Assembly: GCA_964187785.1 (NCBI GenBank)
Contig: OZ076409.1
Coordinates: 66,962,001 to 67,026,000 of the forward strand
DNA: 64,000 nt
Reading direction: 5' to 3'
From: Amphiscolops sp. MND2022
Lineage: Eukaryota
Shown in pieces: positions 2,222 through 63,166 of this stretch. Position 1 is the stretch's first letter; each line of letters opens with the position of its first letter. The notes below the pieces were generated by a model. It did no database searches, was not told the DNA's origin, and was given only the letters and a program-made list of their open reading frames with translations. A program made the position numbers and the translations under genes.

Positions 2222-2245
2222 GAATCCTGAAACAAAAATTCTGAA

Positions 2246-35000: not shown

Positions 35001-35517
35001 AAAAAGATTCCGGCCAACCATCCAATTCCCAGCATTCCACTATATTCCCAAAAGCTGAATCATCGTCTTTACCATCTAACTACACATCAAAGAATTCTAA
35101 AGTGAAATTAACAATGTCTCAACTTGAAAGTCCGCTTTCTTTTTAGTGTTTCCTCAAAACTCCCTTTTTAGTGTTTTTTGACGATGCTAGATAAAAAGTC
35201 TCCTAATTTGCCTAATTTTTTGCAAAATTTGGCGGCAAAATGTTGAAGATGTTTAGAGACTAGGGATGTTTCTGAGCCGTAAGTCTCGACAGGTTTATAA
35301 CATCGGGCAAAAGAAAATCAGGATTTATTGATTCATTTTGAGTTCTACAGTAAATGAAACCGATTGTCCTCAGAAACGACAGAATTAGCTGAAAATAATG
35401 GAATGACCGCAATACTCCAGTTATTCCATTTTCATTATGACGACTATATTTTACATTGAACATGATGTACATTGTTTAACCTCAAATAAAAAATCAAACG
35501 TAAGTTTTACGAAAAAA

Positions 35518-36272
35518 TGTAACGTCCGGCAGTCGGCGTTGCAGAAGTTTTTGAAAATTTCGATCAAAAATTCGAAATGTGCGACATCAAACAAGCACAT
35601 TCAAGATGGCCGACCCGGCAGGTACGAAAACCGCAGAGGAAGCAAAAATAAAGGCAAAACACCACAAGAAAGACCCAACCCACCACCCAGGAACGAGAAT
35701 GTCCGAGATGTCATCACCCAGAAGGCGTGAGAATCGGGAATTCGGCCATCTGACAGCAAAAGGACAGGGTTTTGGCAGAAAAGTGCCAAATGAGACCATT
35801 GTGCCCCGAAGATGAGGAATGATGCCAGAGGCAGGAAGCCGATGATCGCCACCGAACTGTAACTGTATACTTTATTGGGGCCTATCCCCACCTACTTTGA
35901 CTGTTTATAGCGTATTTGGATAATGTTTGACCTACTAGGGCCTCATTTTAGTCCTTATTCACTCAATATACTGTATTTCAGCTAGACACCTTTTTGGACC
36001 TCGGAAGTATGTGGGAAGTCGTAGGAACGTGCTAGAAACCTTAGGATACGTTTTTACAGGCTTGTGGGGCGTGTCCGGACTTTGAGAGTGCCGGCACGTC
36101 GCCTCGGAGCTCTAACTAGAGGAGCCTCCTTAGACGTTAGAAAAGTCCCCCTTGGAGACCATTTTGGGATCAAAAACTAGTGTCTAGGTATGTAGTAAGA
36201 CAACGGTCTCCTGTTTAAGCATCCTAGGCATTGTCCCTCTTCCTAGATGTGCGCCGCTAGCCGGACGTTACA
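35518..36272 (+). repeat. 5' LTR of the non-autonomous element
   Basis: 13-bp perfect terminal inverted repeat TGTAACGTCCGGC...GCCGGACGTTACA. Confidence 0.97.
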
Positions 36273-36288
36273 TCTGGAATAGTTTTTA

Positions 36289-36306
36289 TGGCGACCACAG
36301 AGGGAT
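36289..36306 (+). promoter_or_regulatory. Primer binding site (probably tRNA-Arg)
   Basis: TGGCGACCACAGAGGGAT; TGG complements the tRNA CCA end; identical to 45717-45734; tRNA identity recalled from the ...GTGGTCG-CCA end of Arg tRNAs. Confidence 0.85.
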
Positions 36307-36899
36307 ATTTTTCAAGGATAATTTTCCTTACCGCGTCCTGCGAGGAGCAACTCCTGCTTTCCGGCCCTGAAAGGTCCGGATCTAGGAGAAGCTTTTGGGA
36401 GAGTCCTAGATTGTTTTTACTGCTTTATTCTAGCCCTTTGGGCCTTGTATTAGTGTTTTTCCTGCGTTTCCTGCATGTTTCCGAGGTCCCTAACCTGAAA
36501 AAGACAGTTTGAAACGGTGTACCCCCTTGTACCTTATCTGTACTCATTAAAAAAGCTATTCCGGCTTATCCGGAACGTGTTTTAACGGGTCTTCCAGCTT
36601 CTTTTCAGCTAATTAGCAATGTACAGGGACTGCGAGGACGGTTTGTGAAGACCCGAGCTAGCTGAGTGCAGGACTGCAGGTGCTTCACGTCATAGCCTCT
36701 TCCTCCCCACCTGGTGCCGATTCACCGAAGACAGCTGGGTTATTTCGTTCCCTTTACGTTTTCTAGCCCCAAATTAGTATTCCCAGGCCTGTTTTTGCAT
36801 AAACTAACTGAGAAAAATGCCCATTGGGTATTCCGATTGTTTTCTGAAAAAATATAGCGAGCTAGCCATAACACCCTATATAGCTCTAGTTTCGATTTG

Positions 36900-37560
36900 G
36901 TTACTTTTAAAAGTCGAAATTTTTCAGAAGATAGTAGGACCAATGGGAATACAATAAAAACGTTCTATTAGACCTATCAGGTCAGGAACAGAAAAATTTG
37001 TTTAGCTAAATTGTCTAAAACACCGAAAACTTTAGCGATTTTTGTTTGAAAACGTCAACTTTGGACTTTGAGACGAAAAATGGTGAGGGCGAAGCCCTGT
37101 TCGTTTTTCTCAGAGCATTGCGAGCCACCTAAAATTCTTTTTCCCGAGCCAGATATTAGAAAACGTTATCGTCAAGCAGTTTTTTGAGGCCCTCCAATGA
37201 AATATTGAATAAGTTACCAGCCAATTTTAATTTTCATACAATAGCCACTTATTGGTCATCATTAGTTACAAAAGCCAAAATTTTTCAGAAGAGGGTACGG
37301 CCAGTGGCAATACAATAAAAACGTTCCACTAGACCTATCTGGCTAGGAACAAAACTTTTTAACCCGCTAATTTACTTGAAAACAAAAAAAAATTAGCGAT
37401 TTTTGTTTGTGAAGACCCAAAATTGGCCTAACGGACCAAATGTGGTGAGGGCGAAGCCTTGAGCGTTTGTTCCAAAGCTTTCAGAGCTGCCCAAAAACAT
37501 TGTTCCCGAGCTTGGTGGTACAAAACACTACTGCCAAGACGTTTTTTTACCCTTCCCCAA
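36900..37560. repeat. Diverged ~361-bp direct repeat in the non-autonomous element interior
   Basis: ACAATAAAAACGTT..TAGACCTATC..AGGAACA..TTAGCGATTTTTGTTTG..TGGTGAGGGCGAAGCC..TTCCCGAGC at offset ~361. Confidence 0.9.
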
Positions 37561-40249
37561 TATAAATTAAAAGTTTAACCGTTGACATTCTATTGTTATA
37601 CATAGACCTGAGTAGAGGACCCCATAGACCTGAGAGTTATAACATCAAAACTAATAATTGAAACAATCCCAGTCCCATGAATAAAGTTATTACACCTTAT
37701 TACGTTACGTTTAGAGCTATCCCGAACATCTGAGAACCGAAGAATAAAAAGTTCCTAGGGAAAATACGTGTTTTTCATAGGTGTTCCCAGAGTGTCCAAG
37801 GTGTAACCTAAAATCAATTTTGAGAGACCTTATTTGGAACCTGCCAGGTTTCGCTCGCCTATTTTCTGTTAGTAGAGAGTACTAGATTACTAACGCCGAA
37901 AACCGCGAGTGATTCCAACCAGTGGTTGTTGAGAAATAGCCCAAAACGTGCTATTTTTGCGACATTATCGGAACATTGAAATAGTGTTTCAAAGAAAGGT
38001 CGAAATCTCTCCTAGCAGGAGTAGCCCAAAACGAATTGCACCATCGTGTAGACCGCAATAAGTTACGTTAGTGGTGTAATTTTCGTAGCGCTACTGTTAC
38101 TAGTGATCGAGAAATCTTAGCCGCAGTTTTGCTCAAAAATGATCCGAAAATGTCGAAAAAATTGAATTTTAGTTGAGCATAGTGCAATACCTCGCAGGTA
38201 CCCCAACACTAAAATTCTTGCATTTTCGTGCACACGGCACTGGATCACGACGATTTGTGCAATTTGAGCAGCTGGCTACTAGCCAAAGCTGAGAAATTGA
38301 CATTTTTGCGATTTTTGACCCGAAAAAGTGGTACCTCTGGTACATCAAGGTTTTGTCACTTCATATCGCCAGATGTTGATCAAGGCACCTCGCCCCTCTG
38401 TTTTTCTGTTACGTAGGCAAAAGTTACGCTCGCATGCAAAATTTCAGGTGGCTGGGACGCCTCGAAGGCGAGTCTGACCACTTTTTGTGAATTTCACGAC
38501 ATAGTCAAATTTTCAGTGAACATTGTTAAGTGGCCCTGACACCCACAGGGTCAATTTTGACGCAATCGGAGGTTCATTCCCCACGATTCAACCAGTGTAT
38601 TAGACGGTGTGAAATTTTCAAGTCGCTAGCAGCGCTACAAGTGATTTTCACCTTCCCCGGAGGTGCATGTTGACGAAAAAATTGTTGATTTTGGTCATTT
38701 TTGCAAAAAATCACATAGTTTTTGTCAATGTACGTGCCAGTGAGGGCCAAGGCGAGCCCATTAGCATATCTGGCGCCCTCAGGACGTCTTCTTGAATCAC
38801 TTTGATTAGTGCTAAGCTGACCCTAAGATCTCGGGTCTCTGAGAAAACCGATCTATGAGACATGGAGGTGAAAAACCGAAAATGGAAATTCGCCTCCCGG
38901 CTGCTATCAAAGTCACTTGAGTGCAATCTGTTCATTGAGATTACGCATACTCAGTGCCCCATGGGCCCTACAGGTGCTGGAGCGCGTTTATAGGCACTTT
39001 TAGAAGTTTAGACTTTGTACGCAGTGCGTCTCAAAACAGGACAACAAGTGCAGTAGCGACTACCATAGTCGAAAAAGAACGCTTTTTCTGATCGTACTAC
39101 GATCGTAAGGCAAAAAACCACTTCAAACTCAGTGTCTCTCCTCCTACTCACCCCCAAGGTCTACCCGTAGTCCCTAATTACATTTTTGTTATCACTTATG
39201 CTCTCCAGAAACATGGCAACATGAGTGACAAGCGGACATTTCAGACAATCTAACATCTGTAGCCAAGCAGACTTCTCAAATAATCAGTGTTCGTTGCTCA
39301 ATTCATGCCTATGGCGTACTTTGGTGCTCGGTACCACAGTTGCGTGAACCATGTCGATGTGAAAACACCGGACCAGAGATTGGCCCGGGGAGTACCCGTA
39401 CTCACCCGAGAGGAGTCAACACCAAGCTTGATGAAACACCTAGAGCTTCGAAGCTCTGAGAACTGCTTGGCCAGCGGCGGTGCTTTTAGAACCCGAATGA
39501 TTGTTCTGGAACTTGTTTTTAATGCTGAAGACTGTTTTCATGATCTATCATGCCTGATTTTTGACTTTTATTGGTTCTGCTCTATCATCGTTAGTGACAT
39601 TGTCCCCTCTTGAGAAGTAGTTTGTTTCCATCTCTTGCATATACACTGGTGCTTGTACTACCTAGGCAATAACTTTAACTGGGCGTACACTGCTGACACA
39701 ATAGATTGAATAGTTCCTCACTTTTGGTGATATTTTTGATTTTTTGAGGCCTGTTTCACCATTGGTGCTAGTTATTGTGCAGTTTCTGTTGGCCATGAAC
39801 TTTGCAAGACCACAGCTGTTACTTTTATTTTTCGCTTTTCAAGTGCTATCGTGCTTTTTATAAAACCTAACCTATCAGGCGGACCCCAGGTCAGTGCCAA
39901 ACCTATTGTGATGAGTGCTTTTTATGCAGATGCAATAAGGTGCTAGAAATTTTGAAATCTTGGTGCGAAATTAAAAGTTTGAATTTGTTTTGAATATAAG
40001 GCTAAGTGTCTAAAGTTGCTAATATTTTTCCAGTGCAAGAACCCGTTGTTGGTGTGGAATCCAAGGAAACCTGCTAGGCTGGCAAAAACTCATGTTTTTG
40101 GGCAATAACGTGTTTTTGGGCAACGACTTCCATTTAGATTCCTGAAGTACCATGTTGCAACAGTATCACTGGATCACTGGATGGTGGCAACCAAGATGTG
40201 AACGTCCTCTCTCGTTTGTCGAGGACGACAAACTACGGCCCGGGGAGGA

Positions 40250-41004
40250 TGTAACGTCCGGCAGTCGGCGTTGCAGAAGTTTTTGAAAATTTCGATCAAA
40301 AATTCGAAATGTGCGACATCAAACAAGCACATTCAAGATGGCCGACCCGGCAGGTACGAAAACCGCAGAGGAAGCAAAAATAAAGGCAAAACACCACAAG
40401 AAAGACCCAACCCACCACCCAGGAACGAGAATGTCCGAGATGTCATCACCCAGAAGGCGTGAGAATCAGGAATTCGGCCATCTGACAGCAAAAGGACAGG
40501 GTTTTGGCAGAAAAGTGCCAAATGAGACCATTGTGCCCCGAAGATGAGGAATGATGCCAGAGGCAGGAAGCCGATGATCGCCACCGAACTGTAACTGTAT
40601 ACTTTATTGGGGCCTATCCCCACCTACTTTGACTGTTTATAGCGTATTTGGATAATGTTTGACCTACTAGGGCCTCATTTTAGTCCTTATTCACTCAATA
40701 TACTGTATTTCAGCTAGACACCTTTTTGGACCTCGGAAGTATGTGGGAAGTCGTAGGAACGTGCTAGAAACCTTAGGATACGTTTTTACAGGCTTGTGGG
40801 GCGTGTCCGGACTTTGAGAGTGCCGGCACGTCGCCTCGGAGCTCTAACTAGAGGAGCCTCCTTAGACGTTAGAAAAGTCCCCCTTGGAGACCATTTTGGG
40901 ATCAAAAACTAGTGTCTAGGTATGTAGTAAGACAACGGTCTCCTGTTTAAGCATCCTAGGCATTGTCCCTCTTCCTAGATGTGCGCCGCTAGCCGGACGT
41001 TACA
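40250..41004 (+). repeat. 3' LTR of the non-autonomous element
   Basis: Copy of 35518-36272, preceded by hairpin GTTTGTCG-AGGA-CGACAAAC and PPT GGGGAGGA. Confidence 0.97.
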
Positions 41005-41352
41005 AAAAGTATTGAACAGTTCGAAAACGCCCACAAAAATTTTAAATTGAATTTTCTACAACTAAAAAATTCTACAACTAAGAAATTGAACCAAAAATGG
41101 GTCTAGGTCGATCTTTAATCGTCTGAATGTGACGATTTCAAAAACTGATTAAGCTAGTGAGTTGGTGGCTCGGCCAATCGAATATCTAACAAATTTACAG
41201 GCAAAAACCCAAGTCAAAGAGCCAAAAGCCATGCGTCATTCAGACTTGATTCGATTCTAAAAATGGATATGGAAATATATATATTTCGTCATTTTTCCAA
41301 CGATGTCTTTTCTATGAATATAGCCTGGGAAATTGTCAGAAGAGTTGAAAAC

Positions 41353-44187: not shown

Positions 44188-44387
44188 NNNNNNNNNNNNN
44201 NNNNNNNNNNNNNNNNNNNNNNNNNNNNNNNNNNNNNNNNNNNNNNNNNNNNNNNNNNNNNNNNNNNNNNNNNNNNNNNNNNNNNNNNNNNNNNNNNNNN
44301 NNNNNNNNNNNNNNNNNNNNNNNNNNNNNNNNNNNNNNNNNNNNNNNNNNNNNNNNNNNNNNNNNNNNNNNNNNNNNNNNNNNNNNN
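44188..44387. other. Assembly gap (200 N)
   Basis: Direct observation. Confidence 1.
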
Positions 44388-44987: not shown

Positions 44988-45701
44988 TGTAACGGCAACT
45001 GCCCATGTCAAAATTTTCGAAGCAAAAATTCGTTCAAATCTGACGTGGCACTCAAACATGCTCCAGACGAAAGACCTGTCAGAAAAGCAGAAAAAAATCA
45101 GAAATCGCCCCCCGCGAGAGACGACGAGAAGAGAAGACGTAGAAAGCAGTCCCTAGAACACGGTGATGTGCCCATCTTTGGCGTTTACACTACGTAGGTA
45201 ACAGAAACCGGTGTTCCAGATGCTCGCCTGAAGATCCTGCGGTGTCCGGTGCGGTGACGAGCGCTAGCGCTGGGAAGCCATGGTCGATTCGCTCCTGTTA
45301 AATAACTCGAACTTGTGATATTGTTATGTCTATTGTGCTTTCCTTGTTGTAGTAGATTGATATGCTCGAGAGCTGCCCATTTACATCTATGGTTACCCCT
45401 TTTTGATGTCGATTTTATCAGATTCTCCAATACTATGGCTCAACATCCTCCTGTTTTCAGTCCCTTTTTTAAAGGCTAATTGAGCAGTGGTCTTGAGACA
45501 TGCAAGATGCCCGTTACTTTTAGCAGTTACAGACTAGGACCAGGCCAGAGAGTTTCCAACAAGACGGTTCCCCCACCTTGGGACTGGCTCCTTCGGAGGG
45601 AAAATGAGCTAGGGCCGCGGAGATCTAAGTCCCGGATTATATTCGCTGTTCTAGTTCCTCCACTCTACGTTGCGGTTCAAGCGCCAGCGCTTATCGTTAC
45701 A
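44988..45701 (+). repeat. 5' LTR (714 bp)
   Basis: Matches 63167-63881 except GCAG-AAAAAAA-TCAG versus GCAG-ATCAGAAA-TCAG. Confidence 0.97.
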
Positions 45702-45716
45702 TAGAACCTCATTTTT

Positions 45717-45734
45717 TGGCGACCACAGAGGGAT
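45717..45734 (+). promoter_or_regulatory. Primer binding site (probably tRNA-Arg)
   Basis: TGGCGACCACAGAGGGAT, 15 nt downstream of the LTR end. Confidence 0.85.
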
Positions 45735-46909
45735 CGTCTTGGGAAGCTTTCCCTAGCGGTTTTTAAAAGATCTGGCCCCCTGGTATTCAGCGCCAAGCCC
45801 GTTTCGACTCTGGAAAAGGAGAGAGAAGCAGAGTTTTACCCTTTTTTAGTCGTGTGACATTCTACTGGAACTGGGAGAGGCGTTGAACCAGAGAAAACCC
45901 GAAAAAATCACGTTTTCAGGTGCGAAAATGGTATTTTTAGGTATTCTGGAAGGAAATCGATATTTTGTGTGATGTGTTGTGTGCCCATCAGAGGGTATCT
46001 TTTTGCAGGTGCTGAGGACCGTAGCACGTGGCTACGGGTGTTTAACAGGTTTTGCAAGCTATTTTCAGCCATTTTATGCCATGCAAGAAGGTAACTGGTG
46101 GATGGCTGACCATGAACCAGCGAGGCGAAGGGGAAGTCAAATTGTGTGTTGCCTACTTTCTACTCCCATTTCTCGTGGAGACGTCCTAGAGGTATGGTTT
46201 TTGGTGGACAGCAAGTGCAATTGCAGACGATGCTAATGGTCCAAACCGCGTGTCTCTATCTGGTCTGGATGTGGAGAAAAAGCGTGGTGAAGGTGCACCC
46301 CCTGTGACCGGACGCGTCGCTCAAATGGCTCATGGTCGGTGAAATTTTTGAAAATGCACCTTTTTCGACGGGGAATCGTTGGTGCAGGTCAGTAATGTTT
46401 TATTGTAGATGTAACGACACCCTACGAAGTGCTTTTCTGCAAAAAAGATAGCACTTGCGTGAAAAAACCCTGATTTTGCGTTTTTTCGTGTTTTTCGTGG
46501 TTTTGAGCACTTGTGCTCAGCGGAACCAGGAAAACTTCGTGAAAAGTGTTGTAAAAAGCAGCTGCAAGGCTCGAGAAAGCTAGTACGAGGCACAGAAGGC
46601 CGTAATTTTGCCTTTGGTTGTGATAAAAGTGCCGATCTAGCAACAGAAAATTGCAAAAAAATGGAATTTTGACCAAAAAGGCACCCAGAAACACAGGCGT
46701 ACACTTGTGTAGAAGTGTGAAAAAGCAGTGTACGGTGTTTTGTCAAGCGTAGTAAACCCACAGGACACTAACTGTAACTTTTACAGCGGATTCAGGCAGC
46801 CTGGGGCTGACACGGTGCAAAAAACCGGTAATTTAAGGTGCTTTTAGGCATAAAAAGTGCATTGTCTGAAAGTCTTGAGAGTGAAACTTAGTGGACCAGA
46901 GCGAGTCTG

Positions 46910-47720
46910 AACGCTCTTATTTTCTGTTGTCGCAATAAAAATAACGCATTGTGGTGAAAACCGCGTGCAAAAACTCCTTTTCAGTGTCGAGAAAAGTCGA
47001 TAAACCTAGAATTTCAGTTAGTTTCAGGAGTGTCCTAGCACACAATAAAAACCCCCTGGGCACTCTGTCTTTTTGTTAATCAGGAGCTTTCGTGCTCTCG
47101 TTTTCTGTTTCTATAGTAAAAACCACGCATTGTAGTGAAAACCGCATGCAAAAAATCCTTTCCAGTGCTGAGAAAAGTGGAAAAACGCACCGAATTTGAT
47201 CAATTTTCCACAAAACCGGACCGTCTCTGAGCTAGGGTCGGGTCATCGATTCCTGAACCCTAGCCAAAAAGTGGTTGCATTTTCGTAACCACCACAAAAA
47301 TTAACGTTGGTGCCGAAAATTTGGTGGGCGTATCGGTCACCAAAGTCGAGAAAAGCTCTCTGACGTTTCGACCTCAGAGAAGCGTAAAAGGACCGAAAAA
47401 ATCCAAAACTGCAGGACTGTCAGTGCCTTATACCTAACGGGCACAACCAATTGGGGGCTTATCCCAGTGCTACGGATAGTGGGGCAACACGTTGGTCCCA
47501 TTGTACCCGCCGTATCACTTTCTGAGGTGATCCTCTTCGTCAATTTGTGAAAAAAGTCGTCAAAAACAGTGTTTTTTCGTGTACAACGTACATAGTGGGT
47601 CGAAACCTCAAATAAGCGCTTGCGCTTCAATTCGACCATATCAGTGGCATTGTAGGTGCCCACTGGCATAGACTACTACGTTTGGTGCCAATCTGTGTGA
47701 TACTTGTCGAGAAAATAGGA
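46910..47720. repeat. ~180-bp phased degenerate repeats in the 2.7-kb 5' leader
   Basis: Clear pair at 46920/47101 (offset 181); G(T/C)(C/T)GAGAAAA at 46986, 47167, 47345, 47706. Confidence 0.75.
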
Positions 47721-48406
47721 AAAACGCGGCGCCCAAAAAGGTGTGCAAAAAGGTAGTTTTTTTTAAATTTTTCCAAGTAACCCGGGTACCTTAGCCGACG
47801 GGTGGGGCCCTATTGCAGCTCACCATCGTAACTTGTACTAGTTCCTACGTTGTTGCAGAGAATTTGAGCTGGGTAGCTTTTTCCAGTGGACCGCAATCTG
47901 GAAAAAGACGTGAAAAACAGTGTATCTCGGTACATAGTGGTACCGCACGTCTGTACCTAGGTGAAACTGTGTAGAAGGGGTGCAGCTCAATTCTGTGTTT
48001 ATTTTCGTAAACCTACGCGTACCTAAGATCTGCTGGTCAATTTTGGGCTTGATACAGCGCTTCCAGCGCACACACGAGCCTCTTGAGTGTTGTTGTGCGA
48101 TTTTTGGAAAATCCAGAAATTCTTTGAAATTCTTCCTGTGAGTGACCGGAGGCTTTTGGCCCCAAACTAGATCGATTTTCTGACCCAGTGTGCTTGTGGG
48201 AAAGTGCTGTGCGAATTTGAGCAGCCTACGAGCCTTAAAACGTATTTCGAGAAATTTGGGACGTTGCGAAACAGTCAAATTTCTTAAGTCCACACCGAGA
48301 CGAGCCTAGAGCTAACCGCGACTCGACAAATCCCACGTTCTTCGAGACTTCTATAAAGGCTACATCCGAATCGTTGACACCTGCTCTGCCATTGGCATCG
48401 TGTGTA

Positions 48407-51400
48407 ATGGTCCTACCAGGCCTGGAAAAGCTTGACATGAGTTCGCAGTCATGGGTGACCATAGGATCCACAATGGACGGTTCGCATTTTTCAGACGAAA
48501 TGTCTGACGAAGTCACTATCGAGCAACAACGCAAGGAGGAATTGGCCGCCATGGTCCCTCCCTCTGAGGGTTCCGTTGCATCTGGAAGCTCTCGTCGAAC
48601 CGAACAATGGGTCGAAGAAACCTGTCGTGAAAGAGCCAATGAAGCAGAAGAGGAGTGGCCCAACTCAAACGTGACCAACGAACTTGCAGCTGAGGAAGGG
48701 TGCTCTCGCGCACCCCTAGGGGAAAAGATGAGCTCCCGCCTACAGATCACGGTGGATGAGGATCTTACCTACTCGGAGAACACGAGTGGTGCGAGACCGC
48801 AAGGGTCTGGAGTCACTCGAAGTAACACTAGAGTTTGTGCCTATGGCAAACACAAGAAAGTGCGACCACCCATGATAAATGTAGGTGAACGTCAAGTTGA
48901 AGTGCCTCGTAAGAGGAGCGTGGCAGGTTCAGTGGCATCGTCCCAACGATCTTCGGTGTACAAAGCCGCAATATTGGAAGCCCAAGCCGAGACCCAACGT
49001 GCCTTAGCTGAACTGGCTAGCACTCGTGCTGGGTGCAATGACCAACATCGTGCCATCGCAGAAAATATGAGAACGTTGCAGACAACGATGCGAGAAGGAT
49101 TGCAGGTCAGTGATCAACTGCGAACCGCGCAGAACACGCAGAGTGCTCGCGTAGATGCACTAGGCTACAGAATGGGTGAGATGAATGACCTCTTGATGGC
49201 CCGTGAACTTCGTGTGGAAACCCAGATCAATGATTTGAGTAACCAAATGCACACTGTGCTCAATGCTATCAACATCATGAGGCGCGAAAGGTCCCTCCCA
49301 CGACAATCTGGTGCCACTGAAGGTGTGCCGATCGCGGATTCAATTAAGATTCCGGAATCATCGCACCAGGGTCAGGCAACAAAACCAGAAGTGGCGAGCG
49401 CATTGAAGCCTAGCACCTCCAAGTCGACGACGCCTGAAACCCGAACCAAGGATCCTGTACCCATCATGGCTGCTGTGGAGCGTAAACCTGCACGGGTGCA
49501 GGTAAGAGGGCCCCACGACTCCTCGTCGATGAGTCAAATAACATCCTCCGTAGTTCGAAGTGCCACCCGAGACCAAGGTGTGGACCCGATGTCACCTATC
49601 TATCTAGATACTTCTACCGAAGTTGATTTATCCTGTACTAAGGCCACACTAGGGTCCCAGACTGATGGAGCTGCGTATGCGACGGCCCCTACCATGGTTT
49701 CTGGAACGGACTCCCTGTATCTGACCGCCGACTGGACAGCCGAGGACGGAATGCCCTCGGGCGCTCCTTGCGCGAGTAGCACTCGCAGGAAAGAAGACGT
49801 GACGAACCTCTCAGTGCGAGCTACGCATGGCAGTGACGACGGTACTGATGAAGTGGCACCCAAGGAAGGAGAGGCTGAAGTCATCTCTCCCGAGCAATTG
49901 AGGTTCACTGCCGCCATCTCCAAAGCAATGTCCAAAGAGCTAGCACCGTTGCTTGCGGGACGTGACCTGGCTCAAACCAAACCCAGCGTGTATCGAGGCT
50001 CTAAGGACGGGTCTATTGATGGCTGGATCTTAGTGATGCAGCGATACTTGAAAAGAGTCCAAACCAAGATCTCGGCCGAAGATCGGGCCTGGAGCATTAT
50101 CGGTCACCTCGAGGGTGAGGCTCGCAACTACATCATCAACAAGGCTGAGTCTGAACGTGACACCCCCGAGAAGGTGTTTGAGTTGCTATCTAGCCGATTT
50201 GGCGCGGGAGGAAATCGTATGCAGGTGCGGCAGACCTTCCAAAGCCGCGTCCAACAAGAAAAAGGGGACTGGATGCAGTACTTAGACGCTTTAGAGGGTC
50301 TCAGGAGCCAAGGATTCCCGCAAGAAAGTATCATTACCAAACGTTATGAAATCTTGCAACGCTTCATGGAAGGTGTGCGAGATCCAGTGTTGAGGCGTGA
50401 ACTTGCCATAGTATACGCCTCGGAGACTTTTCTTACCGAACCCCCTACCGTGGAGTCCTTGCGATTTACCACACGTCAATTGCAACGAAATCGTCCCAGA
50501 CCCACCCAACCTCAACAACCCTATGATCCCAGATTAGCCATGAGGTCTAGACCTCATCCTTTCGCACCACTGCCGCCGAACAAGATGGTTATGCCGCAGG
50601 GCGTCCTGCCACCTCCGGCGCCACCCCAAAATGTCCCAGCTCCCGCTGTCCCAGCGCCCGCCCGAGCGCCGGTAGGTGCTTGTTTCCACTGTGGGCAAAA
50701 CGGACATTTTGCTCGCGAGTGCCCCAATCGTGACCAAGCCCGAAAACCAATGACTGCCTCCGAACCAGAGGGCGTAAAGGTGACCACGGAAGACACGACC
50801 GATGGTATCCTTGAAGGTCATCCGGGGATCTATCAATGCACGAGCTGTGGACTTTTCGATCAGGCGGAAGTGCAATGTGGTGAGCACTCCCATGCGCCGA
50901 AACCCAATGACGAGTTGGCCTACAATCGATGGGCTGAGGTCGAATCAGCTGGCATCGCCGCGCACACCGTACCTTTGGAAGATGACCGTGTGTTGATGCT
51001 ACATCCAGCGGAACCGCCTGCGTTCCACACTCCGATGACATTCACTTGTGGTGCTAAGCAAATTCAGACCTGCTTGGAACCCACGACGTTCGATCCGCAA
51101 GGACGGACGCTGATTTCAATTCACCTGTTGCTGGCAGCTGAGCAAATACGTAGGCCGACGCTAACTCTGGCGAAGCTATGGGTCGAATTGTCTATCCTCT
51201 ACAAACGAAACGAGTTGCCTCGACCGAAAGAATGGTACGCTCCGGGAGAGTCTGCGACTCTGACAACATATTCCCCAGTGCCAGTCTGCGCTTCAATGGA
51301 TGGAGTGGATATGAAATTCGAAGCCTGTGTGGTGGTGGATGTATTTCCCCCTGGCATTTGTCTGGGTCCCCAGGAGCTCAAATGCTATAACATCAATCAT

Positions 51401-54400
51401 CAGGAGCCCACCGGCGAAGCGCGTATAGATGAGCGTGCGTCGCTCGTGGTCTCTTTCGTGGTGCCTCATGCAGCACCTATTCCGCTGCGAGGACTGGTGG
51501 ACACTGGCTCGGGCGTCTCCATACTGACGTTTTCCGCCTTCAACAGAGTGGCAGCTCGAACTGGAACGGTACTTAAACCCTACCAAGTTGACCTGTACGC
51601 AGCCAACGGGAAGACAATAAAGACCTACGGCCTCGCAGAACACATCCATTTCCAGCTGGGAGGATACGAACTTGAAACGAACTTTGTGGTGGTAGATGAC
51701 GCAATGGGTGTGGAAGACTTCCTACTTGGCCGGAACTTTCTTCGCTCCTACCAGGTGTTAGTGGATCTAACATCTATGAAGATTGTGGTGCGAGCACCAG
51801 TGAAGCCTGTGTGGCATCATGCTCACGCACAGGTAGGTGACACTTCAATAGCTACTCCAGTCGTTTTGGACAGTGACTTGGTCCTGCAACCTTTCGAACG
51901 AGCGGTGGCTAGAGCCAAGCTCGTCACCAACACACTAGAGCCGCTGATTTTTCAAAGCGTAGCGCTCAATGCCTCTTTGTCTGACACTACGTTGCACAAT
52001 GTCGTCTTTTTAGAGGACAGCGTGGCCACTGTCAGTGAGACAGGAACACTCTTTGTGAGCCTGATAAATCTCACCAGCAACCCTCAACGCATGCGGTGTG
52101 GTGTACAACTGGGCACCGTAGTACCCATAACGGTAGTATACCAAGCAGTACCTCAATGTTTGGACTCTCCCACTACAACCCGCACAAAAACTGACGCCGA
52201 CGACAGTCGTGCAAATTTTGTTCATAAAATTTATAGTGAAGTGAATCTATCCACTGCTTCTGAGTTAACCTCTTCTTCAGAATTTGAGTTTTTGTCCTCT
52301 ACTGACCCTAGCGAGGCAGGACTATCGGAGCGCGAGATTCGCAAGCGAACGGACCCAGAGCTAATGGCTCCGATTCCTGGGCCGGAATCTCAGCTCAAGG
52401 CGGTCAAGGATTTATGGGGCGCTAGCGCCTGCGAGTCTCTCCGTAACCTCCTCGATGAATTCGATGAGCTATTCATGAAACACAAAGCGGACATCGGTCG
52501 GTGCACTATCGCTAAGCACACCGTGGAGGTGGAACCAGGGGCTGTACCGCATCGTGAAGGTGCTCGCCGGATGTCCCCTGAGAAGGCCGAACGTGCCAAT
52601 CAGGAGGTACGGAACCTCTTAGCTCTGGGAATGATACAGCCCTCGCTGTCCCCTTGGGCGAGCGGCATTGTAATGGTGAAAAAGAAAAACGGGGAGTTGC
52701 GCTTTTGCTGCGACTTCCGCCCGTTAAATGAGGTAACCATTAAGGATGCTTATCCCTTGCCCCGCATTGATGAAAGCCTGGCACGGCTAGGCAAGGCGAA
52801 GATCTATACCAGCATAGACCTTGCTTGGGCCTTTTGGCAAATTCCTGTGCGAAAGGCGGATCGCCACAAAACCGCTTTTGCTTGTGAACTAGGACTTTTT
52901 GAGTGGCGGCGAATGCCATTTGGTATGTGCAATGCATCTGCCACGTTTCAGCGGTCAATAGCGCGTGCGCTAAGGAATATTGTCAATCGTGAGGGCAGCA
53001 TGGTCATGGCCTACATTGATGATATCGTGATTGCCACAGAGACTGTGGAAGACCATATGGTACGCCTACGTGAAGTCTTTGAATGCCTCCGTGAAGCCGG
53101 TTTCAAAATGCGCGTGGCCAAATGCGATTTCATGAAATCGGAGATCAAGTATTTGGGACGAGTGGTTTCCGCAGAAGGAGTAAAGCCCGACCCGAAAGCC
53201 GTCGTCAAGTTGCGCGATTGGGAAATTCCCCGTAACAAGACGGAGATGCAGAGTTTCCTTGGATTCGCCAACTATTACCGCGAATTCATCCCTTGGCACG
53301 CTAAGCTGGTTGCACCCCTGCACGCCGTCACTGGACTGAATGCCACCTTCGCCTGGGGTCCTGAGCAACAAACCGCATTCAATGAGATCAAAAAAGCCCT
53401 AATCGAGGCAACTGCGCTCGCGCAGCCTGATTCCGAAGGAGAGTTTGTGTTGGACACTGACGCTAGTGCTGTCGCCATTTCTGGTATCCTGCACCAGTGG
53501 CAAGGTCCTCCGGGTGAACGACGCCTGAGACCGATAGTTTACGGTAGCAAGAAGCTCACCACCACACAAGCCAAATACGGAGCTCCCAAACTTGAAATGT
53601 TCGCCGCCTACTATTTCATAGTGAAAAACCACAGCTATCTATGTCCCCGGAAATTCACCCTGCGGGTGGACAACCAAGCTTTGTCCTGGTTGAAAACCTA
53701 CTCCACGGATCAAGCGCTAATCGGCCGATGGATTATGACCCTGGAGAAGTATCACTTTCGCGTGGAACACCGCCCGAGAACTCAACATCGAAACGCCGAT
53801 GGCTTGAGCAAACGAACCAACGAGTACCGATGCCGCGAGAAACAGCTTGCACAGCAGCCAGCTGCGGGCGAACGCTGGAATTTTCTTTCAGCTGACGAAT
53901 TTGATAAACTACCTGTTGCCCCATGGTTCGACCTTCAGGGTCGAGTCATCCCGAATCATCCCGAGCTACCTGCGCACCTGCAGAACTTGGAGCCTAAGGC
54001 TCCCAACCAATTGCTACGCGTGCTTCGCCGCACCAAACGAGCGAGCAGGAGGGACAGACAAGCAAAAGCATTCGCAGCCCCCTTGCCGCCTCCGCCTTCC
54101 CTTGCTCTGCAACCGCACGAGGATGCCTATCCAGACTACCCTGAGGACTGGATTGATGTGACTGATGAAGCACGCGAAGATTATCTATTACCGACGCATG
54201 CCGTAAATGTACCCTCACGTACCGTCTATGCCATTGCTGGGGCGAATCCTGTTGCGCTGCAGGGTACTCCCTCGGGTGTACGCGACTCAATTTTGGCTCT
54301 TAAAGACATCAACACTGAACTTCACGAACATGCTCACACCGTGCATGGTATCAAAGATTTGATTCTAGCCCAAAATCGTGATGTTCATGTGCTAGCACTC

Positions 54401-57400
54401 AAAAAGTTGGTGCTAAACGAACCCATCGATCATGACGTGTTTCCCGAGAACGTGCGTGAGTTCGCACGCAACTACTACCGTCAAAAGAAAACTCTCCTGT
54501 TTATTAACAAGAATGGTGTGCTTTGCGTACGATACCCTCCCAACCAACGTCCTCTGCACGAACGTCCGTGCATGATCGTCATGCCTCAACTGTACCAGCA
54601 TGAGATTTTATTCCGCGCGCATGACGCCATGGGACATCAAGGTATCTCCAAAGTGGTGGCTCGGATTCAAGAACGTCACACATGGCCTGGTATTCGGCGC
54701 AGCGTGGGCCGTTACGTTGGCCAATGCCTCACCTGTCAACAAGTTCGAGATAAGCCTGGTGACGTCCGATTCCACCTAAAGAACATCCAGAGCGGATACT
54801 TCAACGAATTGGTCCAATATGATCATCTGAAGATCTGCCCCTCAGACAGTAATAACACTGGCATCTTGGTCATAATTGACCATTTCTCCAAGTTCGCGGA
54901 AGCAGTGCCCTGTAGTCATCACGACTACGACGCTGTGACTACCTCTCGGTTGCTGTTACAAAAGTGGTTCGCCCGTCATGGCACACCCACTAGAATGCAG
55001 TCTGACAATGCCCCAAATTTGACTGCTGAGGTGTCCAACGAATTCCTAAAAGCAGCCCACGTTACCAAAGTAACCTCTACGGCTAGCCATCCGAGAACCC
55101 AAGGCTTGGTGGAGCGTCAAAATCGGACGCTGTTAACCCTACTGCGAGTTTTTTGCTCCCGCCGTATGCGCGACTGGGACCAATGTCTTGATGAGGTCAT
55201 AGGCGCCTACAACTCTACGAGGCACGCCACCACTGGCTTCTCACCCTACATGCTGACCCGTGGTGTAGAGAAGGCCATCCCTCTCACGTTCTTGTATCCC
55301 GAATTTGCAGCCAAATCATTCGAGTCGCATGAGGCGTATGTCGATCATGTATTGGCTCGCCAGCAGGAAATACATGACTTGGTACGGCGTAACACGCACC
55401 AAGCCCAATTGCGTCAAAAGTTGAAGTACGACCGTGCTATACAAGCGCGAGCTTACCAAGTAGGCGAGCTCGTCTGGGTATTTTGCCGCTACGTACCGCA
55501 AAAGGGTTCCCCGAAATTGATGCGTGCTTGGCGAGGCCCGCACAAGGTTGTACAAATCTTTCAGGACGGTCGTGTCTATGTGCTAGACACAGGTCAAAAG
55601 GTTCATTTTGAGCGTCTTAAACCGCACCACAGTGGCCCACTTGAACTTGCTACTGCACACACGGACAGTGGTGAGGTGGTGGTCCTTATGGACCCCGAAC
55701 CTGAACGTTCCGTCGACGTAGTTGATGACGACAAGTCTCTATCGTCGTATAAACCCGAACAACTACTTTCAGAAGCGTCCGATGCATCTTTGCCCTCACG
55801 TCGACGTCACTGGATGGACACTCGACTACGCACGAAACTTCGCGCAGGCGGCTCCCGCCCGCATTATCAGCAATTTGACTATTCCACCTCAGGTACAGAC
55901 GACGAACTATCCGATGCCATGTTGCCGATACCTCCAGTTGACGAGGATCTAGTGGAGCCTGCGGCTCCTCCGACTGCGTTGGATCAGTCGATATCCCCTG
56001 CCCGTGTACTACCTCAACTGTTCTCTGACCATGAGCGCGTGCGCTCACCGTCTCCACAGATATCCTCCTCCGAAAAAGAAACATCGTTACCAGGAACCTC
56101 AGCATCCTTGTTGACGAATCCCTCGCTAACCAATTTTCTTAGCAACTATCCCATATGGCCGACCGCCCCTCCGATTCCTCTCAAATCTGCCAGCAACGAC
56201 AGCAACGTTCAGCCCGATCTGCCTGAAGCTCCCGAGATTTCGCCAGGAGCGGGGACCGCTCCTTCTTTTAAAAGGGGGAGGGGGAGACCACCCAAGGCAC
56301 AGAAGAAACGGCTGATCCGAGCGAAGGCAAGGACGAGGAAGAAAGAAACACCGAGAAATGCCGAAACCGAAACTGCGATCCAGGCCGAAACGGAAGCTCC
56401 CAGAACTGCAGAGACGCTAACAGAGGCATCTGCAACTGCTCTTAGGTATCAACTAAGGAGTAAACGGCAGCCGCGCTACAAGTGTGGAACCTGCGGGCTG
56501 CGAGATTGTGTCTGCCTATTAGCTGTGAATGAGAACCGGAGGGTTCCCATTGGAGCCCGGGGAGTTCCTCCGGAAGAGAGAGAAAACTTGGTGTACCGCC
56601 TCACGGTGCGGGCCGAGAAAACCTACTCAGCTGTAGAGCGGTCTGGAGACCACCCTGTGGACACTATCCTGGAGAAGTTGTCACTGCCCGGGGTAGCGAA
56701 GGCCCCTTGTCCGAGGTTTAAGGAGTGGACTAGCGATGGAAAGGGCCTGGAGTTTACCCTGTCCACGGTGTTGCCCCCTGTGCCCAGCAATATTGCGTTT
56801 GGGCCATTCAATTTTGAAAGGGAACCTGTGCAGATGGTCCGATGCATCACTGCCGACTTGTTATGCGACAAGTATGGAGTCCAGGTGGAACCAGGAGGGG
56901 TATACAGCCCGGCTCCTCACTGGTGGCTGCTGGTAACAGCTCCACGAGTGGAGGCGATGGTGGAACCGTTGAATCTGTTATCCTGTCTAGAGAGTCTGAG
57001 GACCCTCACCACTGTGGACTTAATACTTTGCTTCCATATCATAGACTGGTACCGAGGCAAGATGAAGTTCGCGTGGTGGCTGGAATTAATAATCACATGT
57101 TTCGCCACCTATCCCAGAATTCGACTATTAGACGAGTGGACTCACACCTTCGAGATCCCCTTGTTCCCCAAAGCCGCCCTGGGAACTTTAGATGTGTGGG
57201 TAAAGGCCGGCAGCGACAATCGGGCGATGCCCCGCTCAGTATGGCAAGACCTGGCTGCAGTCCAAGGGCGTACCCCTCACGTGTGTCTGCCCTCCGATAA
57301 TGGTCCCGGACGAGAGATTGTTTACCCGGGAGCCCTGTATCCGAATTCAGCCGAACACGTCTCTTACGATGAATCCGATTTCTTGCAGGCCGAGGGCGAC

Positions 57401-57817
57401 ATAGTGTTAGCATGCCCTGCTGACCTAAAGACCAACTCTGCCGCCCTGCGATATGTGCTGCGGGAGTGCGGCATAGAAGATGTATTTGCCTTACGACCTA
57501 AAGTGGGCGAGATTCTCACTATCCCGCCTGATGTGAACCCCAACCCTAACCAAAGTATTCACCTGTTAATAGTCCGTGCTAACCAGCGCGCACCGCTGCT
57601 GACAGATGACTACTTGCGTTGCATGACGTACTTGATACAGCGCCTGATAGATAAAGGATCCACACGGGTCCACTTACCCATTCTGGACCCCGAGAGACCG
57701 GCTTTCTCGTTGGTCAATCTGTACCATACTCTAACGAACATGTTCGAGGGTACTGGTATTCACGTGGTTTTGCATAGCCGCGTATATGTATCAATATTAA
57801 CTATAGGGCTGAAGTAG
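48407..57817 (+). CDS. gag-pol: Gag-Pol polyprotein (~3,136 aa from the first ATG) with a C-terminal extension ending in a macrodomain
   Basis: Capsid-like region ~49980-50460; CCHC CFHCGQNGHFAREC 50681-50722; protease LVDTGS (D at 51500); RT YIDD at 53012; RNase H LDTDAS ~53450; IN HHCC ~54620-54740 plus D,D,E (IIDHFSK, QSDNA, LVERQN); GPY/F-like WRGPHKV; AT-hook 56270-56296. Confidence 0.97.
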   Translation: MVLPGLEKLDMSSQSWVTIGSTMDGSHFSDEMSDEVTIEQQRKEELAAMVPPSEGSVASGSSRRTEQWVEETCRERANEAEEEWPNSNVTNELAAEEGCSRAPLGEKMSSRLQITVDEDLTYSENTSGARPQGSGVTRSNTRVCAYGKHKKVRPPMINVGERQVEVPRKRSVAGSVASSQRSSVYKAAILEAQAETQRALAELASTRAGCNDQHRAIAENMRTLQTTMREGLQVSDQLRTAQNTQSARVDALGYRMGEMNDLLMARELRVETQINDLSNQMHTVLNAINIMRRERSLPRQSGATEGVPIADSIKIPESSHQGQATKPEVASALKPSTSKSTTPETRTKDPVPIMAAVERKPARVQVRGPHDSSSMSQITSSVVRSATRDQGVDPMSPIYLDTSTEVDLSCTKATLGSQTDGAAYATAPTMVSGTDSLYLTADWTAEDGMPSGAPCASSTRRKEDVTNLSVRATHGSDDGTDEVAPKEGEAEVISPEQLRFTAAISKAMSKELAPLLAGRDLAQTKPSVYRGSKDGSIDGWILVMQRYLKRVQTKISAEDRAWSIIGHLEGEARNYIINKAESERDTPEKVFELLSSRFGAGGNRMQVRQTFQSRVQQEKGDWMQYLDALEGLRSQGFPQESIITKRYEILQRFMEGVRDPVLRRELAIVYASETFLTEPPTVESLRFTTRQLQRNRPRPTQPQQPYDPRLAMRSRPHPFAPLPPNKMVMPQGVLPPPAPPQNVPAPAVPAPARAPVGACFHCGQNGHFARECPNRDQARKPMTASEPEGVKVTTEDTTDGILEGHPGIYQCTSCGLFDQAEVQCGEHSHAPKPNDELAYNRWAEVESAGIAAHTVPLEDDRVLMLHPAEPPAFHTPMTFTCGAKQIQTCLEPTTFDPQGRTLISIHLLLAAEQIRRPTLTLAKLWVELSILYKRNELPRPKEWYAPGESATLTTYSPVPVCASMDGVDMKFEACVVVDVFPPGICLGPQELKCYNINHQEPTGEARIDERASLVVSFVVPHAAPIPLRGLVDTGSGVSILTFSAFNRVAARTGTVLKPYQVDLYAANGKTIKTYGLAEHIHFQLGGYELETNFVVVDDAMGVEDFLLGRNFLRSYQVLVDLTSMKIVVRAPVKPVWHHAHAQVGDTSIATPVVLDSDLVLQPFERAVARAKLVTNTLEPLIFQSVALNASLSDTTLHNVVFLEDSVATVSETGTLFVSLINLTSNPQRMRCGVQLGTVVPITVVYQAVPQCLDSPTTTRTKTDADDSRANFVHKIYSEVNLSTASELTSSSEFEFLSSTDPSEAGLSEREIRKRTDPELMAPIPGPESQLKAVKDLWGASACESLRNLLDEFDELFMKHKADIGRCTIAKHTVEVEPGAVPHREGARRMSPEKAERANQEVRNLLALGMIQPSLSPWASGIVMVKKKNGELRFCCDFRPLNEVTIKDAYPLPRIDESLARLGKAKIYTSIDLAWAFWQIPVRKADRHKTAFACELGLFEWRRMPFGMCNASATFQRSIARALRNIVNREGSMVMAYIDDIVIATETVEDHMVRLREVFECLREAGFKMRVAKCDFMKSEIKYLGRVVSAEGVKPDPKAVVKLRDWEIPRNKTEMQSFLGFANYYREFIPWHAKLVAPLHAVTGLNATFAWGPEQQTAFNEIKKALIEATALAQPDSEGEFVLDTDASAVAISGILHQWQGPPGERRLRPIVYGSKKLTTTQAKYGAPKLEMFAAYYFIVKNHSYLCPRKFTLRVDNQALSWLKTYSTDQALIGRWIMTLEKYHFRVEHRPRTQHRNADGLSKRTNEYRCREKQLAQQPAAGERWNFLSADEFDKLPVAPWFDLQGRVIPNHPELPAHLQNLEPKAPNQLLRVLRRTKRASRRDRQAKAFAAPLPPPPSLALQPHEDAYPDYPEDWIDVTDEAREDYLLPTHAVNVPSRTVYAIAGANPVALQGTPSGVRDSILALKDINTELHEHAHTVHGIKDLILAQNRDVHVLALKKLVLNEPIDHDVFPENVREFARNYYRQKKTLLFINKNGVLCVRYPPNQRPLHERPCMIVMPQLYQHEILFRAHDAMGHQGISKVVARIQERHTWPGIRRSVGRYVGQCLTCQQVRDKPGDVRFHLKNIQSGYFNELVQYDHLKICPSDSNNTGILVIIDHFSKFAEAVPCSHHDYDAVTTSRLLLQKWFARHGTPTRMQSDNAPNLTAEVSNEFLKAAHVTKVTSTASHPRTQGLVERQNRTLLTLLRVFCSRRMRDWDQCLDEVIGAYNSTRHATTGFSPYMLTRGVEKAIPLTFLYPEFAAKSFESHEAYVDHVLARQQEIHDLVRRNTHQAQLRQKLKYDRAIQARAYQVGELVWVFCRYVPQKGSPKLMRAWRGPHKVVQIFQDGRVYVLDTGQKVHFERLKPHHSGPLELATAHTDSGEVVVLMDPEPERSVDVVDDDKSLSSYKPEQLLSEASDASLPSRRRHWMDTRLRTKLRAGGSRPHYQQFDYSTSGTDDELSDAMLPIPPVDEDLVEPAAPPTALDQSISPARVLPQLFSDHERVRSPSPQISSSEKETSLPGTSASLLTNPSLTNFLSNYPIWPTAPPIPLKSASNDSNVQPDLPEAPEISPGAGTAPSFKRGRGRPPKAQKKRLIRAKARTRKKETPRNAETETAIQAETEAPRTAETLTEASATALRYQLRSKRQPRYKCGTCGLRDCVCLLAVNENRRVPIGARGVPPEERENLVYRLTVRAEKTYSAVERSGDHPVDTILEKLSLPGVAKAPCPRFKEWTSDGKGLEFTLSTVLPPVPSNIAFGPFNFEREPVQMVRCITADLLCDKYGVQVEPGGVYSPAPHWWLLVTAPRVEAMVEPLNLLSCLESLRTLTTVDLILCFHIIDWYRGKMKFAWWLELIITCFATYPRIRLLDEWTHTFEIPLFPKAALGTLDVWVKAGSDNRAMPRSVWQDLAAVQGRTPHVCLPSDNGPGREIVYPGALYPNSAEHVSYDESDFLQAEGDIVLACPADLKTNSAALRYVLRECGIEDVFALRPKVGEILTIPPDVNPNPNQSIHLLIVRANQRAPLLTDDYLRCMTYLIQRLIDKGSTRVHLPILDPERPAFSLVNLYHTLTNMFEGTGIHVVLHSRVYVSILTIGLK
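57356..57817 (+). other. TARG1/OARD1 (Poa1p)-like macrodomain at the Pol C-terminus
   Basis: VSYDESDFL..DIVLACPADLK..CGIEDVFALRPKVGEILTI..IHLLIVR..KGSTRVHLPIL..MFEGTGIHVVLH aligns by eye with the OARD1-type pattern (YVKGDLF..LAHCISED..GEVAVL..IYYLITK..GVTDLSMPRIGCG..VFEATDIKITVY). Confidence 0.75.
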
Positions 57818-58112
57818 CCTTATCATTTTAGTTGTCCCCATTTTTCCTTTGCCCTCAGTTCTTGTAACAATTCTTGTAACAACCTTGGAAGAGTCTTGAA
57901 ATGCTCTCGAGATGTTAATTTGTCATGTTGTTCACTCAAAGGTTTTGTTCTAGTTCGTTAGTTAGTTAGAGTTAAATTTTAAGTTTGTAGTGGCCCCCTT
58001 ACGGAGCCGATTTTGCCTGGCTGCAATTGAAGGACGAACCGACCCACGGCTCGTTCCAGAGAGAACTTGTCCCTGTAAGTCTAACAGTGGTCCTTTTTAG
58101 ACCTATGCATTA

Positions 58113-63127: not shown

Positions 63128-63166
63128 CGCTTGCCAGGGACGACAAGCCAGAAGCCCGGGGAGTGA
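63128..63166 (+). promoter_or_regulatory. Pre-PPT hairpin and polypurine tract
   Basis: GCTTGCCAGGGACGACAAGC..GCCCGGGGAGTGA immediately before the 3' LTR; homologous to 40214-40249. Confidence 0.75.

What the first reader, a model, noticed from the sequence alone, without database searches (positions are those of the whole stretch)
35518..41004. Non-coding LTR element that looks like a parasite of the giant element's machinery
Seen: identical 18-nt PBS, the same TGTAACG...CGTTACA termini, similar U3 start (AAAATTT(T)CGA..CAAAAATTCG), similar long LTR-PBS spacer, the same GGACGACAA hairpin plus GCCCGGGGAG PPT, and homologous interior blocks (e.g. ~38022-38090 versus ~47260-47330). The LTR bodies are otherwise diverged and there is no gag/pol. 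The LTRs differ at one seen position, so it moved recently. Inference: an autonomous/non-autonomous pair; the shared blocks would map the cis signals for packaging, priming and integration. The 200-N gap between them makes their proximity uncertain.
Basis: partly seen in the sequence, partly recalled or inferred. Interest (0 to 1): 0.7.

Follow-up and report, generated by a model that had tools for sequence, protein, structure and literature searches.

The report
Hitch-hiking retrotransposon with second priming site
This is a real, recently moved, multi-copy jumping gene that has lost its own enzymes, most likely descends from a sister family rather than from the giant element next to it, and has kept one tiny scrap of the old enzyme gene that carries an exact second copy of its DNA-priming signal.

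Summary
The 5,487-bp element is real: 755-bp LTRs with one mismatch, a 4-bp target duplication, and a PBS, termini and PPT shared with the 18.9-kb Ty3/gypsy neighbour. It belongs to an old multi-copy family: 72 clusters, 136 sequences.

The neighbour (family A) is probably not its parent. The element keeps a 72-nt pol relic that matches a sister lineage, C2b, at 18 of 24 residues and A at 8 of 24; 69 of 70 relatives are closest to C2b. One clade-C pol record also runs into an LTR of the small type (28 of 32 residues).

The relic ends in an exact copy of the 3' PPT (11 nt). The giant has its own copy (12 nt) at the same place in pol; 0 of 300 shuffles reach either. The encoded ARG is kept in 110 of 116 polyproteins inside a variable stretch; the six exceptions are family B.

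Best reading: a LARD-type deletion derivative mobilised by clade C, carrying a candidate central PPT. Priming is inferred, not shown. Help from A is not excluded, and no DNA of clade C could be read.

The parts
35514..35517 (+). Left target-site duplication AAAA (right copy 41005-41008)
   Evidence: low-complexity, so a weak TSD on its own
35518..36272 (+). 5' LTR of the small element, 755 bp
36273..36288 (+). 16-nt spacer between LTR and PBS
36289..36306 (+). Primer binding site, identical to the giant's; its complement ends in CCA (tRNA-Arg-like: recalled, not tested)
   Evidence: no tRNA gene in the window
36307..39290 (+). Leader-like non-coding region, partly colinear with the giant's 5' UTR; 42% GC
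36901..37547 (+). Internal direct duplication (36901-37185 / 37262-37547, 72.5%)
38022..38162 (+). Block homologous to giant 47261-47402; alignable sequence also about 37850-37950 vs 47090-47190
39284..39613 (+). 109-codon open frame; relatives mostly about 130-136 aa; probably not a functional gene
39323..39394 (+). Pol relic: post-integrase segment of a clade-C polyprotein, closest to C2b; 39290-39400 is 53% GC like pol
39382..39392 (+). Internal exact 11-nt copy of the element's 3' PPT (candidate central PPT)
39395..40213 (+). 3' non-coding region, no detectable homology to the giant's 3' UTR
40214..40233 (+). Predicted 8-bp hairpin holding GGACGACAA, inside a longer stem that pairs the PPT
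40237..40249 (+). 3' polypurine tract
40250..41004 (+). 3' LTR of the small element
44188..44387 (.). 200-N assembly gap between the two elements
44988..63881 (+). Giant Ty3/gypsy element (family A), 18,894 bp; LTRs 44988-45701 and 63167-63881; PBS 45717-45734; no TSD
48239..57817 (+). Giant gag-pol frame, 3,192 codons: zinc knuckle, protease, RT, RNase H, integrase, long C-terminal extension
56554..56565 (+). Giant's internal exact 12-nt copy of its 3' PPT, in frame in pol, homologous to 39382
58101..62392 (+). Giant's two extra overlapping frames (1,065 and 509 codons), no Pfam match; absent from the small element
63153..63166 (+). Giant's 3' polypurine tract

Best explanation
A non-autonomous (LARD-type) Ty3/gypsy retrotransposon made long ago by internal deletions of a clade-C element, closest to lineage C2b, a sister group of the neighbouring giant. 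It kept LTRs, PBS, a 3-kb leader, a pol scrap of about 70-100 nt, a 3' region and the PPT, and spread as a family. Its RNA is packaged and copied in trans, most likely by intact clade-C elements: tRNA priming at the PBS, plus-strand priming at the 3' PPT, integration with a 4-bp duplication. The pol scrap ends in an exact copy of the PPT, most simply a central PPT of these long elements. Shown: anatomy, youth of this copy, multi-copy family, origin of the scrap, the duplicated motif. Inferred: trans-mobilisation, the helper's identity, priming at the internal site.
For: LTR identity 754 of 755 and TSD. 72 clusters / 136 sequences related to the internal frame, 57-88% identical; those inspected are colinear with this non-coding layout, not with pol. 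24 contigs of run X1 lie on 24 of 30 bins, at 95-99% (8), 90-95% (4) and under 90% (12). Relic: 18 of 24 residues to C2b, 13 to C1/C2a/C2c, 8 to A, 5 to B; 69 of 70 relatives closest to C2b, 1 tied. It is the only significant hit of a clade-C profile on six frames of the interior (E 1.7e-6; next 0.36). P0143 is 94-95% identical to C1 for 451 aa, then 28 of 32 identical to a frame in mid-LTR of the small element. Clade C has many polyproteins of 2,900 aa or more (44 of 55 C2a, 15 of 26 C2b among those fetched). Shared contig lengths place A, C and small-family records in one assembly (149489; 1080286; 476480 and 310302). Internal motif: 11 and 12 nt, 0 of 300 shuffles each; 4 matches in the window vs 0.05 expected; beyond the cysteine motif only ARG is invariant across A and four C lineages, and these three codons have about 1% chance under the giant's codon usage.
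Against: No clade-C DNA was read, so its LTR, PBS, PPT and the codons under ARG are unseen. The LTR link rests on 1 of 278 proteins; it involves C1, not C2b, and could be an inserted small element later truncated; no control fusion with the giant's LTR was found in the same set. Family B, closer to A than C is, lacks ARG at that place (6 of 6); family D could not be aligned there. In the small family the motif residues are no more conserved than their neighbours (ARG plus V/A/D/E/G in 51 of 70), so selection on it is not shown. It lies only 855 nt before the 3' PPT in a 5.5-kb element, where a second primer gains little. The purine run is short. Ancestry does not prove who mobilises it today.
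Confidence: 0.62

Rival explanations
1. One reading: whatever its ancestry, the small element is now mobilised by the giant's family A, or by any clade member, because PBS, LTR ends and PPT are interchangeable.
For: Identical PBS, 7-nt termini, 10-nt PPT core, U3 start and leader block. Family A looks recently active: RT-integrase 99-100% identical in three records, cluster of 448 sequences. Wheat non-autonomous families use partners with minimal homology and can switch helpers (PMC9744471, passages).
Against: LTR bodies and 3' regions are not locally alignable; the relic is 8 of 24 to A; closer, intact families exist; adjacency crosses an N gap and the giant lacks a TSD.
Confidence: 0.2
2. 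The internal PPT copy works only in the parents. In the small element it marks the founding deletion breakpoint, because a plus-strand start or flap is a recombination hotspot, and it has been carried along neutrally since.
For: Homology to pol stops at about the motif. No excess conservation among copies. Ty1 auto-integration occurs near the central PPT (PMC7197481, passages).
Against: The young copy still has a perfect 11-nt match, and the base before the motif agrees with each element's own 3' PPT (G in both small sites, A in both giant sites; two elements only). Changes after insertion hit all sites, so the conservation test has little power.
Confidence: 0.3
3. The motif is not a primer: ARG is kept as protein, or the 10-mer is another signal (packaging, RNA processing), and its match to the PPT is incidental or a relic of an old duplication.
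For: Family B lacks it. No central PPT is known for Ty3 (PMC5371799, passages); Arabidopsis ATGP3 had few if any.
Against: Exact identity to the 3' PPT in both elements; exact codon choice about 1% by chance.
Confidence: 0.2
4. The element is semi-autonomous and encodes a small protein of about 130 aa.
For: 36 of 72 cluster representatives are exactly 130 or 136 aa; 24 end in the same six residues.
Against: The search returns only copies with an open frame. This young copy and whole subfamilies (the P0262 cluster, 12 members) are frameshifted or truncated. No Pfam match. A profile search of 1.84 billion representatives gave 16 hits, no outside family among those inspected.
Confidence: 0.08

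Closest known systems
LARDs / long non-coding non-autonomous LTR retrotransposons (sugar beet survey, bioRxiv 10.64898/2026.03.01.708851; passages read)
   Same: Over 4 kb, paired LTRs, PBS and PPT, no enzymes, multi-copy, traceable to a parent by a coding remnant (43 of 115 beet families keep remnants).
   Different: Host not identified and not compared with plants; LTRs short relative to the interior; the only remnant is a 72-nt scrap ending in a second PPT, not a gag, protease or RT piece.
Wheat RLG_Wilma / Sabrina / WHAM and RLC_Angela autonomous-non-autonomous systems (PMC9744471; passages read)
   Same: Partners share PBS and LTR termini with little other homology; several helper lineages coexist.
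   Different: There the partner was fixed by population data (subfamilies, ages); here those tests could not be run, and a pol relic points to a family other than the neighbour.
Central PPT of HIV-1, Ty1 and Arabidopsis EVADE (PMC7197481; passages read)
   Same: Internal PPT-like tract inside pol, at or after integrase, at 61% of the giant's length.
   Different: Those are lentivirus and copia cases with mapped priming; Ty3 has none known (PMC5371799). Here it is sequence evidence only, and it survives in a non-coding derivative, much as lentiviral vectors keep the cPPT (recalled).
Giant Ty3/gypsy elements Ogre and Burro (PMC6431247; passages read)
   Same: Long polyprotein and accessory ORFs of unknown function in the 18.9-kb neighbour.
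   Different: Below that review's 20-kb internal threshold; no Burro-type accessory domains by Pfam; not compared with reference sequences.
Mouse ETn/MusD (search listing only; details recalled)
   Same: Non-coding element of similar size mobilised by a related autonomous family and keeping a short piece of it.
   Different: Endogenous retrovirus system; no sequence relationship tested.

Membership tests
LARD-type non-autonomous LTR retrotransposon | Paired LTRs, TSD, PBS, PPT | tested here: met
LARD-type non-autonomous LTR retrotransposon | Longer than 4 kb | tested here: met
   5,487 bp; threshold
LARD-type non-autonomous LTR retrotransposon | No gag/pol coding capacity | tested here: met
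   Longest frame 109 codons; one 24-codon pol relic only
LARD-type non-autonomous LTR retrotransposon | Multi-copy family with a shared internal layout | tested here: met
   full-length copies could not be counted
LARD-type non-autonomous LTR retrotransposon | Conserved internal RNA structure (recalled from the barley definition) | not testable with these tools
   No DNA of other copies; Rfam gave no match at gathering level in 35000-64000
Non-autonomous partner of the giant (family A), criteria of PMC9744471 | Same PBS | tested here: met
   18 of 18 nt
Non-autonomous partner of the giant (family A), criteria of PMC9744471 | Conserved LTR termini | tested here: met
   7 nt at each end; the motif also occurs elsewhere in the window
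Non-autonomous partner of the giant (family A), criteria of PMC9744471 | Shared promoter / LTR sequence | tested here: inconclusive
   U3 start z 3.2; body local z 0.3, global above 100 of 100 shuffles
Non-autonomous partner of the giant (family A), criteria of PMC9744471 | Parallel subfamilies and matching insertion ages | not testable with these tools
   No genome held
Deletion derivative of family A | Retained internal sequence closest to A | tested here: not met
   Relic 8 of 24 to A, 18 of 24 to C2b; 0 of 70 relatives closest to A
Derivative / partner of clade C | Coding relic closest to clade C | tested here: met
Derivative / partner of clade C | LTR shared with clade C | tested here: inconclusive
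   One chimeric protein, P0143, of 278
Derivative / partner of clade C | PBS and PPT shared with clade C | not testable with these tools
   No clade-C DNA obtained
Central polypurine tract | Internal copy of the 3' PPT in pol | tested here: met
Central polypurine tract | Conserved across the autonomous lineages | tested here: inconclusive
   Protein trace in A and C (110 of 116), absent in B (6 of 6), D not alignable
Central polypurine tract | Primes plus-strand DNA, leaves a flap | not testable with these tools
   Needs cDNA intermediates
Ty3/gypsy (giant) | Domain order protease-RT-RNase H-integrase | tested here: met
   named clade not assigned, no reference sequences in the tree

The most novel reading that the evidence does not exclude
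These very long Ty3/gypsy elements use a central polypurine tract hidden in the pol frame after integrase, and the 5.5-kb parasite has been pared down by selection to the cis signals of its helper, keeping that central tract as its only piece of pol: a natural equivalent of a lentiviral vector backbone. The variable nine codons just upstream, which differ sharply between lineages that are 94% identical overall and match C2b in the parasite, would then be a helper-specificity or recombination module.
Probability: 0.3. Interest if true: 0.7.

Novelty: new variant of a known kind. Interest (0 to 1): 0.47.

Why it matters
Non-autonomous LTR elements are well known, so the element alone is a new member of a familiar class. 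Two things lift it. First, it shows that shared PBS, termini and PPT plus adjacency can name the wrong partner when several sister giants coexist. Second, it exposes a candidate central PPT in a Ty3/gypsy lineage; Ty3 has none known (PMC5371799). How 19-kb elements finish plus-strand synthesis is an open constraint on element size (RT processivity and packaging are named as limits in PMC6431247), and this motif gives one exact site to test. Searches for a non-autonomous element keeping an internal PPT returned 7 and 2 papers; none of their titles or abstract starts describes one. The library lacks most subscription papers, and I read no supplements.

Tried and rejected
No whole genome is held, so copies, ages and clade-C LTRs could not be read. 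A strict pattern found nothing in prokaryote genomes; P0143 found no relative in viral contigs. No RNA holder listed. Run X1 did not cover 6 of 30 bins, among them the 5' flank; not used as evidence. No longer or pol-fused form of the 130-aa frame (weak by the tool's own note). Rfam: one chance-level match inside the giant. No tRNA gene. Atlas blank for the giant's second frame. tblastx between the two elements gave only weak hits, best E 0.022. Shifting the giant's right end by 0-16 nt did not produce a TSD. The tree is the quick version and has no named clade references. A search on long LTR-PBS spacers gave no paper on the point in its listing. Earlier findings: nothing by sequence or place; four unrelated by words. 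My guess that the host is an acoel-like marine invertebrate is from memory and base composition and was not tested; it is not used. Rejected: single-copy derivative; derivative of the giant; shared hairpin.
Full report
Observation. The window holds a 5,487-bp element at 35518-41004 with two 755-bp LTRs that differ at one position and a 4-bp AAAA duplication. After a 200-N gap lies an 18,894-bp element at 44988-63881, whose 3,192-codon frame has the Ty3/gypsy order protease, RT, RNase H, integrase. Both have TGTAACG...CGTTACA ends, the same 18-nt PBS after a 16- or 15-nt spacer, and GCCCGGGGAG before the 3' LTR. The LTR bodies match only in a global alignment, and the 3' regions not at all. The hairpin before the PPT is predicted only for the small element. 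The giant has no target duplication, and its two LTRs differ in one short tract, so this copy may be a recombinant or a mis-join.

It is a family. No genome was held, so I counted through gene calls. The 109-codon frame at 39284-39613 has 72 clusters of relatives holding 136 sequences, 57-88% identical. A profile search added 12 new, more distant records among 16 hits. The 21 records checked against the window are colinear with the small element's own layout; one (P0385) jumps from the relic to near the PPT, a further deletion. In run X1, 24 short contigs lie on 24 of 30 bins, 8 at 95-99%, 4 at 90-95% and 12 under 90%. The counts are indirect: they miss copies without an open frame and may include haplotype duplicates or fragments. 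The frame is probably not a gene. It is frameshifted in this young copy and in whole subfamilies, and has no Pfam match.

The giant is one of several. Its RT-integrase region finds, in unnamed ENA assemblies, its own family A (99-100%), family B (80-82%), clade C (63-64%) and family D (52-55%), with cluster sizes 448, 1,094, 633 and over 2,300. A quick tree groups A with B, C as their sister and D outside. Shared contig lengths put A, C and small-family records in one assembly; that they come from the window's species is an inference from the 99-100% matches.

Ancestry points to clade C. Bases 39323-39394 translate to a piece of the post-integrase extension. It is the only significant hit of a clade-C profile on the interior (E 1.7e-6), and it has pol-like GC, 53% against 41-42% around it. 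It matches C2b at 18 of 24 residues, other C lineages at 13, A at 8 and B at 5; of 70 relatives spanning it, 69 are closest to C2b and one ties. Older copies resemble the cysteine motif further upstream. Separately, P0143 is a C1 pol fragment (94-95%) whose last 32 residues match a frame in the middle of the small LTR at 28 positions. That suggests a deletion into its own LTR or a template switch with a co-packaged RNA, but an insertion followed by deletion is also possible. It is 1 of 278 pol-type proteins, and none was fused to the giant's LTR.

The internal PPT copy. GCCCGGGGAG occurs four times in the window, against 0.05 expected: before each 3' LTR and once inside each element. The internal sites are homologous; both encode ARG at the end of the relic. 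Each matches its own 3' PPT over 11 nt (small) or 12 nt (giant), reached by 0 of 300 shuffles each. The two tests are not independent, since the sites share descent. Across A and four C lineages, about 44-49% identical overall, ARG is the only invariant run beyond the cysteine motif, and the codons used have about 1% chance given ARG. ARG followed by V or A is present in 110 of 116 polyproteins spanning the region; the six exceptions are all family B, which counts against a clade-wide need. Within the small family the motif is kept in 51 of 70 and no better than its neighbours; that test is weak because inserted copies decay everywhere.

Mechanism. Shown: anatomy, recent insertion, family status, clade-C origin of the relic, the duplicated motif. 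From established LTR-element biology: an element without enzymes needs Gag and Pol in trans, primes minus strand at the PBS and plus strand at the PPT. Inferred: clade C supplies them (about 0.6-0.65; A or any clade member about 0.2). Also inferred: the internal site primes a second plus strand in the long parents (about 0.55), as central PPTs do in HIV-1, Ty1 and EVADE (PMC7197481, passages), though none is known in Ty3 (PMC5371799, passages). Whether the small element needs it (about 0.3) or merely broke there (about 0.3) is open; the site lies 855 nt before the 3' PPT in the small element and 6,599 nt before it in the giant.

Comparison. By size and content it is a LARD-type element as defined in the sugar beet survey (bioRxiv 10.64898/2026.03.01.708851, passages). 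Against the partner criteria of the wheat study (PMC9744471, passages), A meets PBS and termini, is inconclusive on LTR sequence and untestable on ages; it fails as direct parent. PMC6431247 (passages) sets the context for giant elements. Searches listed no paper on a non-autonomous element whose sole pol relic is an internal PPT; I saw listings only for most of these and no supplements. The tRNA identity of the PBS and the ETn and lentiviral-vector analogies are recalled. The host was not identified.

Verdict. A real, young copy of an old non-autonomous family. The class is known; the candidate central PPT kept in the parasite is the new and testable part. Interest 0.47; 0.7 if internal priming and its selective retention are shown.

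Noticed in passing
window 44983-44987 and 63882-63886; LTR tract near 45090 / 63270: The giant has no target-site duplication and its LTRs differ in a single tract (an A run vs an extra ATCAGAA unit), which suggests a recombinant of two copies or an assembly join. Both LTR ends are followed by TAG.
   Followed up: partly
window 58101-62392: Two extra overlapping frames in the giant (1,065 and 509 codons) with no Pfam or Atlas match; the first is 22% and 30% identical to parts of P0180 and P0307. The overlap suggests a frameshift. A family-D record (P0068) has a weak GDSL-lipase match; not linked to this frame here.
   Followed up: partly
window 36273-36288 and 45702-45716: LTR-to-PBS spacers of 16 and 15 nt imply that the right cDNA end must lose far more than the usual two bases before integration, or that priming is offset.
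   Followed up: no
clade-C polyproteins, nine residues before the conserved D/N-K/N-RLARG stretch: A hypervariable patch differs sharply between lineages that are 89-94% identical overall; it may be a recombination module next to the internal PPT copy.
   Followed up: partly
window 40195-40258: In the small element the 3' PPT is predicted to pair with an upstream complementary tract in a long hairpin (z -2.6).
   Followed up: partly
window 41481-44187: A decayed, A-rich third Ty3/gypsy-like element with an RT remnant runs into the N gap; it also begins TGTAACG.
   Followed up: no
window 1268-5088: LINE-like element with endonuclease and RT frames.
   Followed up: no
window 13870-14384: Tandem duplication of about 258 bp at 99% identity, possibly recent or an assembly artefact.
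   Followed up: no
window 36901-37547 and 46913-47186: Each element has its own diverged duplication in the leader (72% and 81%); the giant's unit resembles single-copy sequence near 37850 in the small element.
   Followed up: partly
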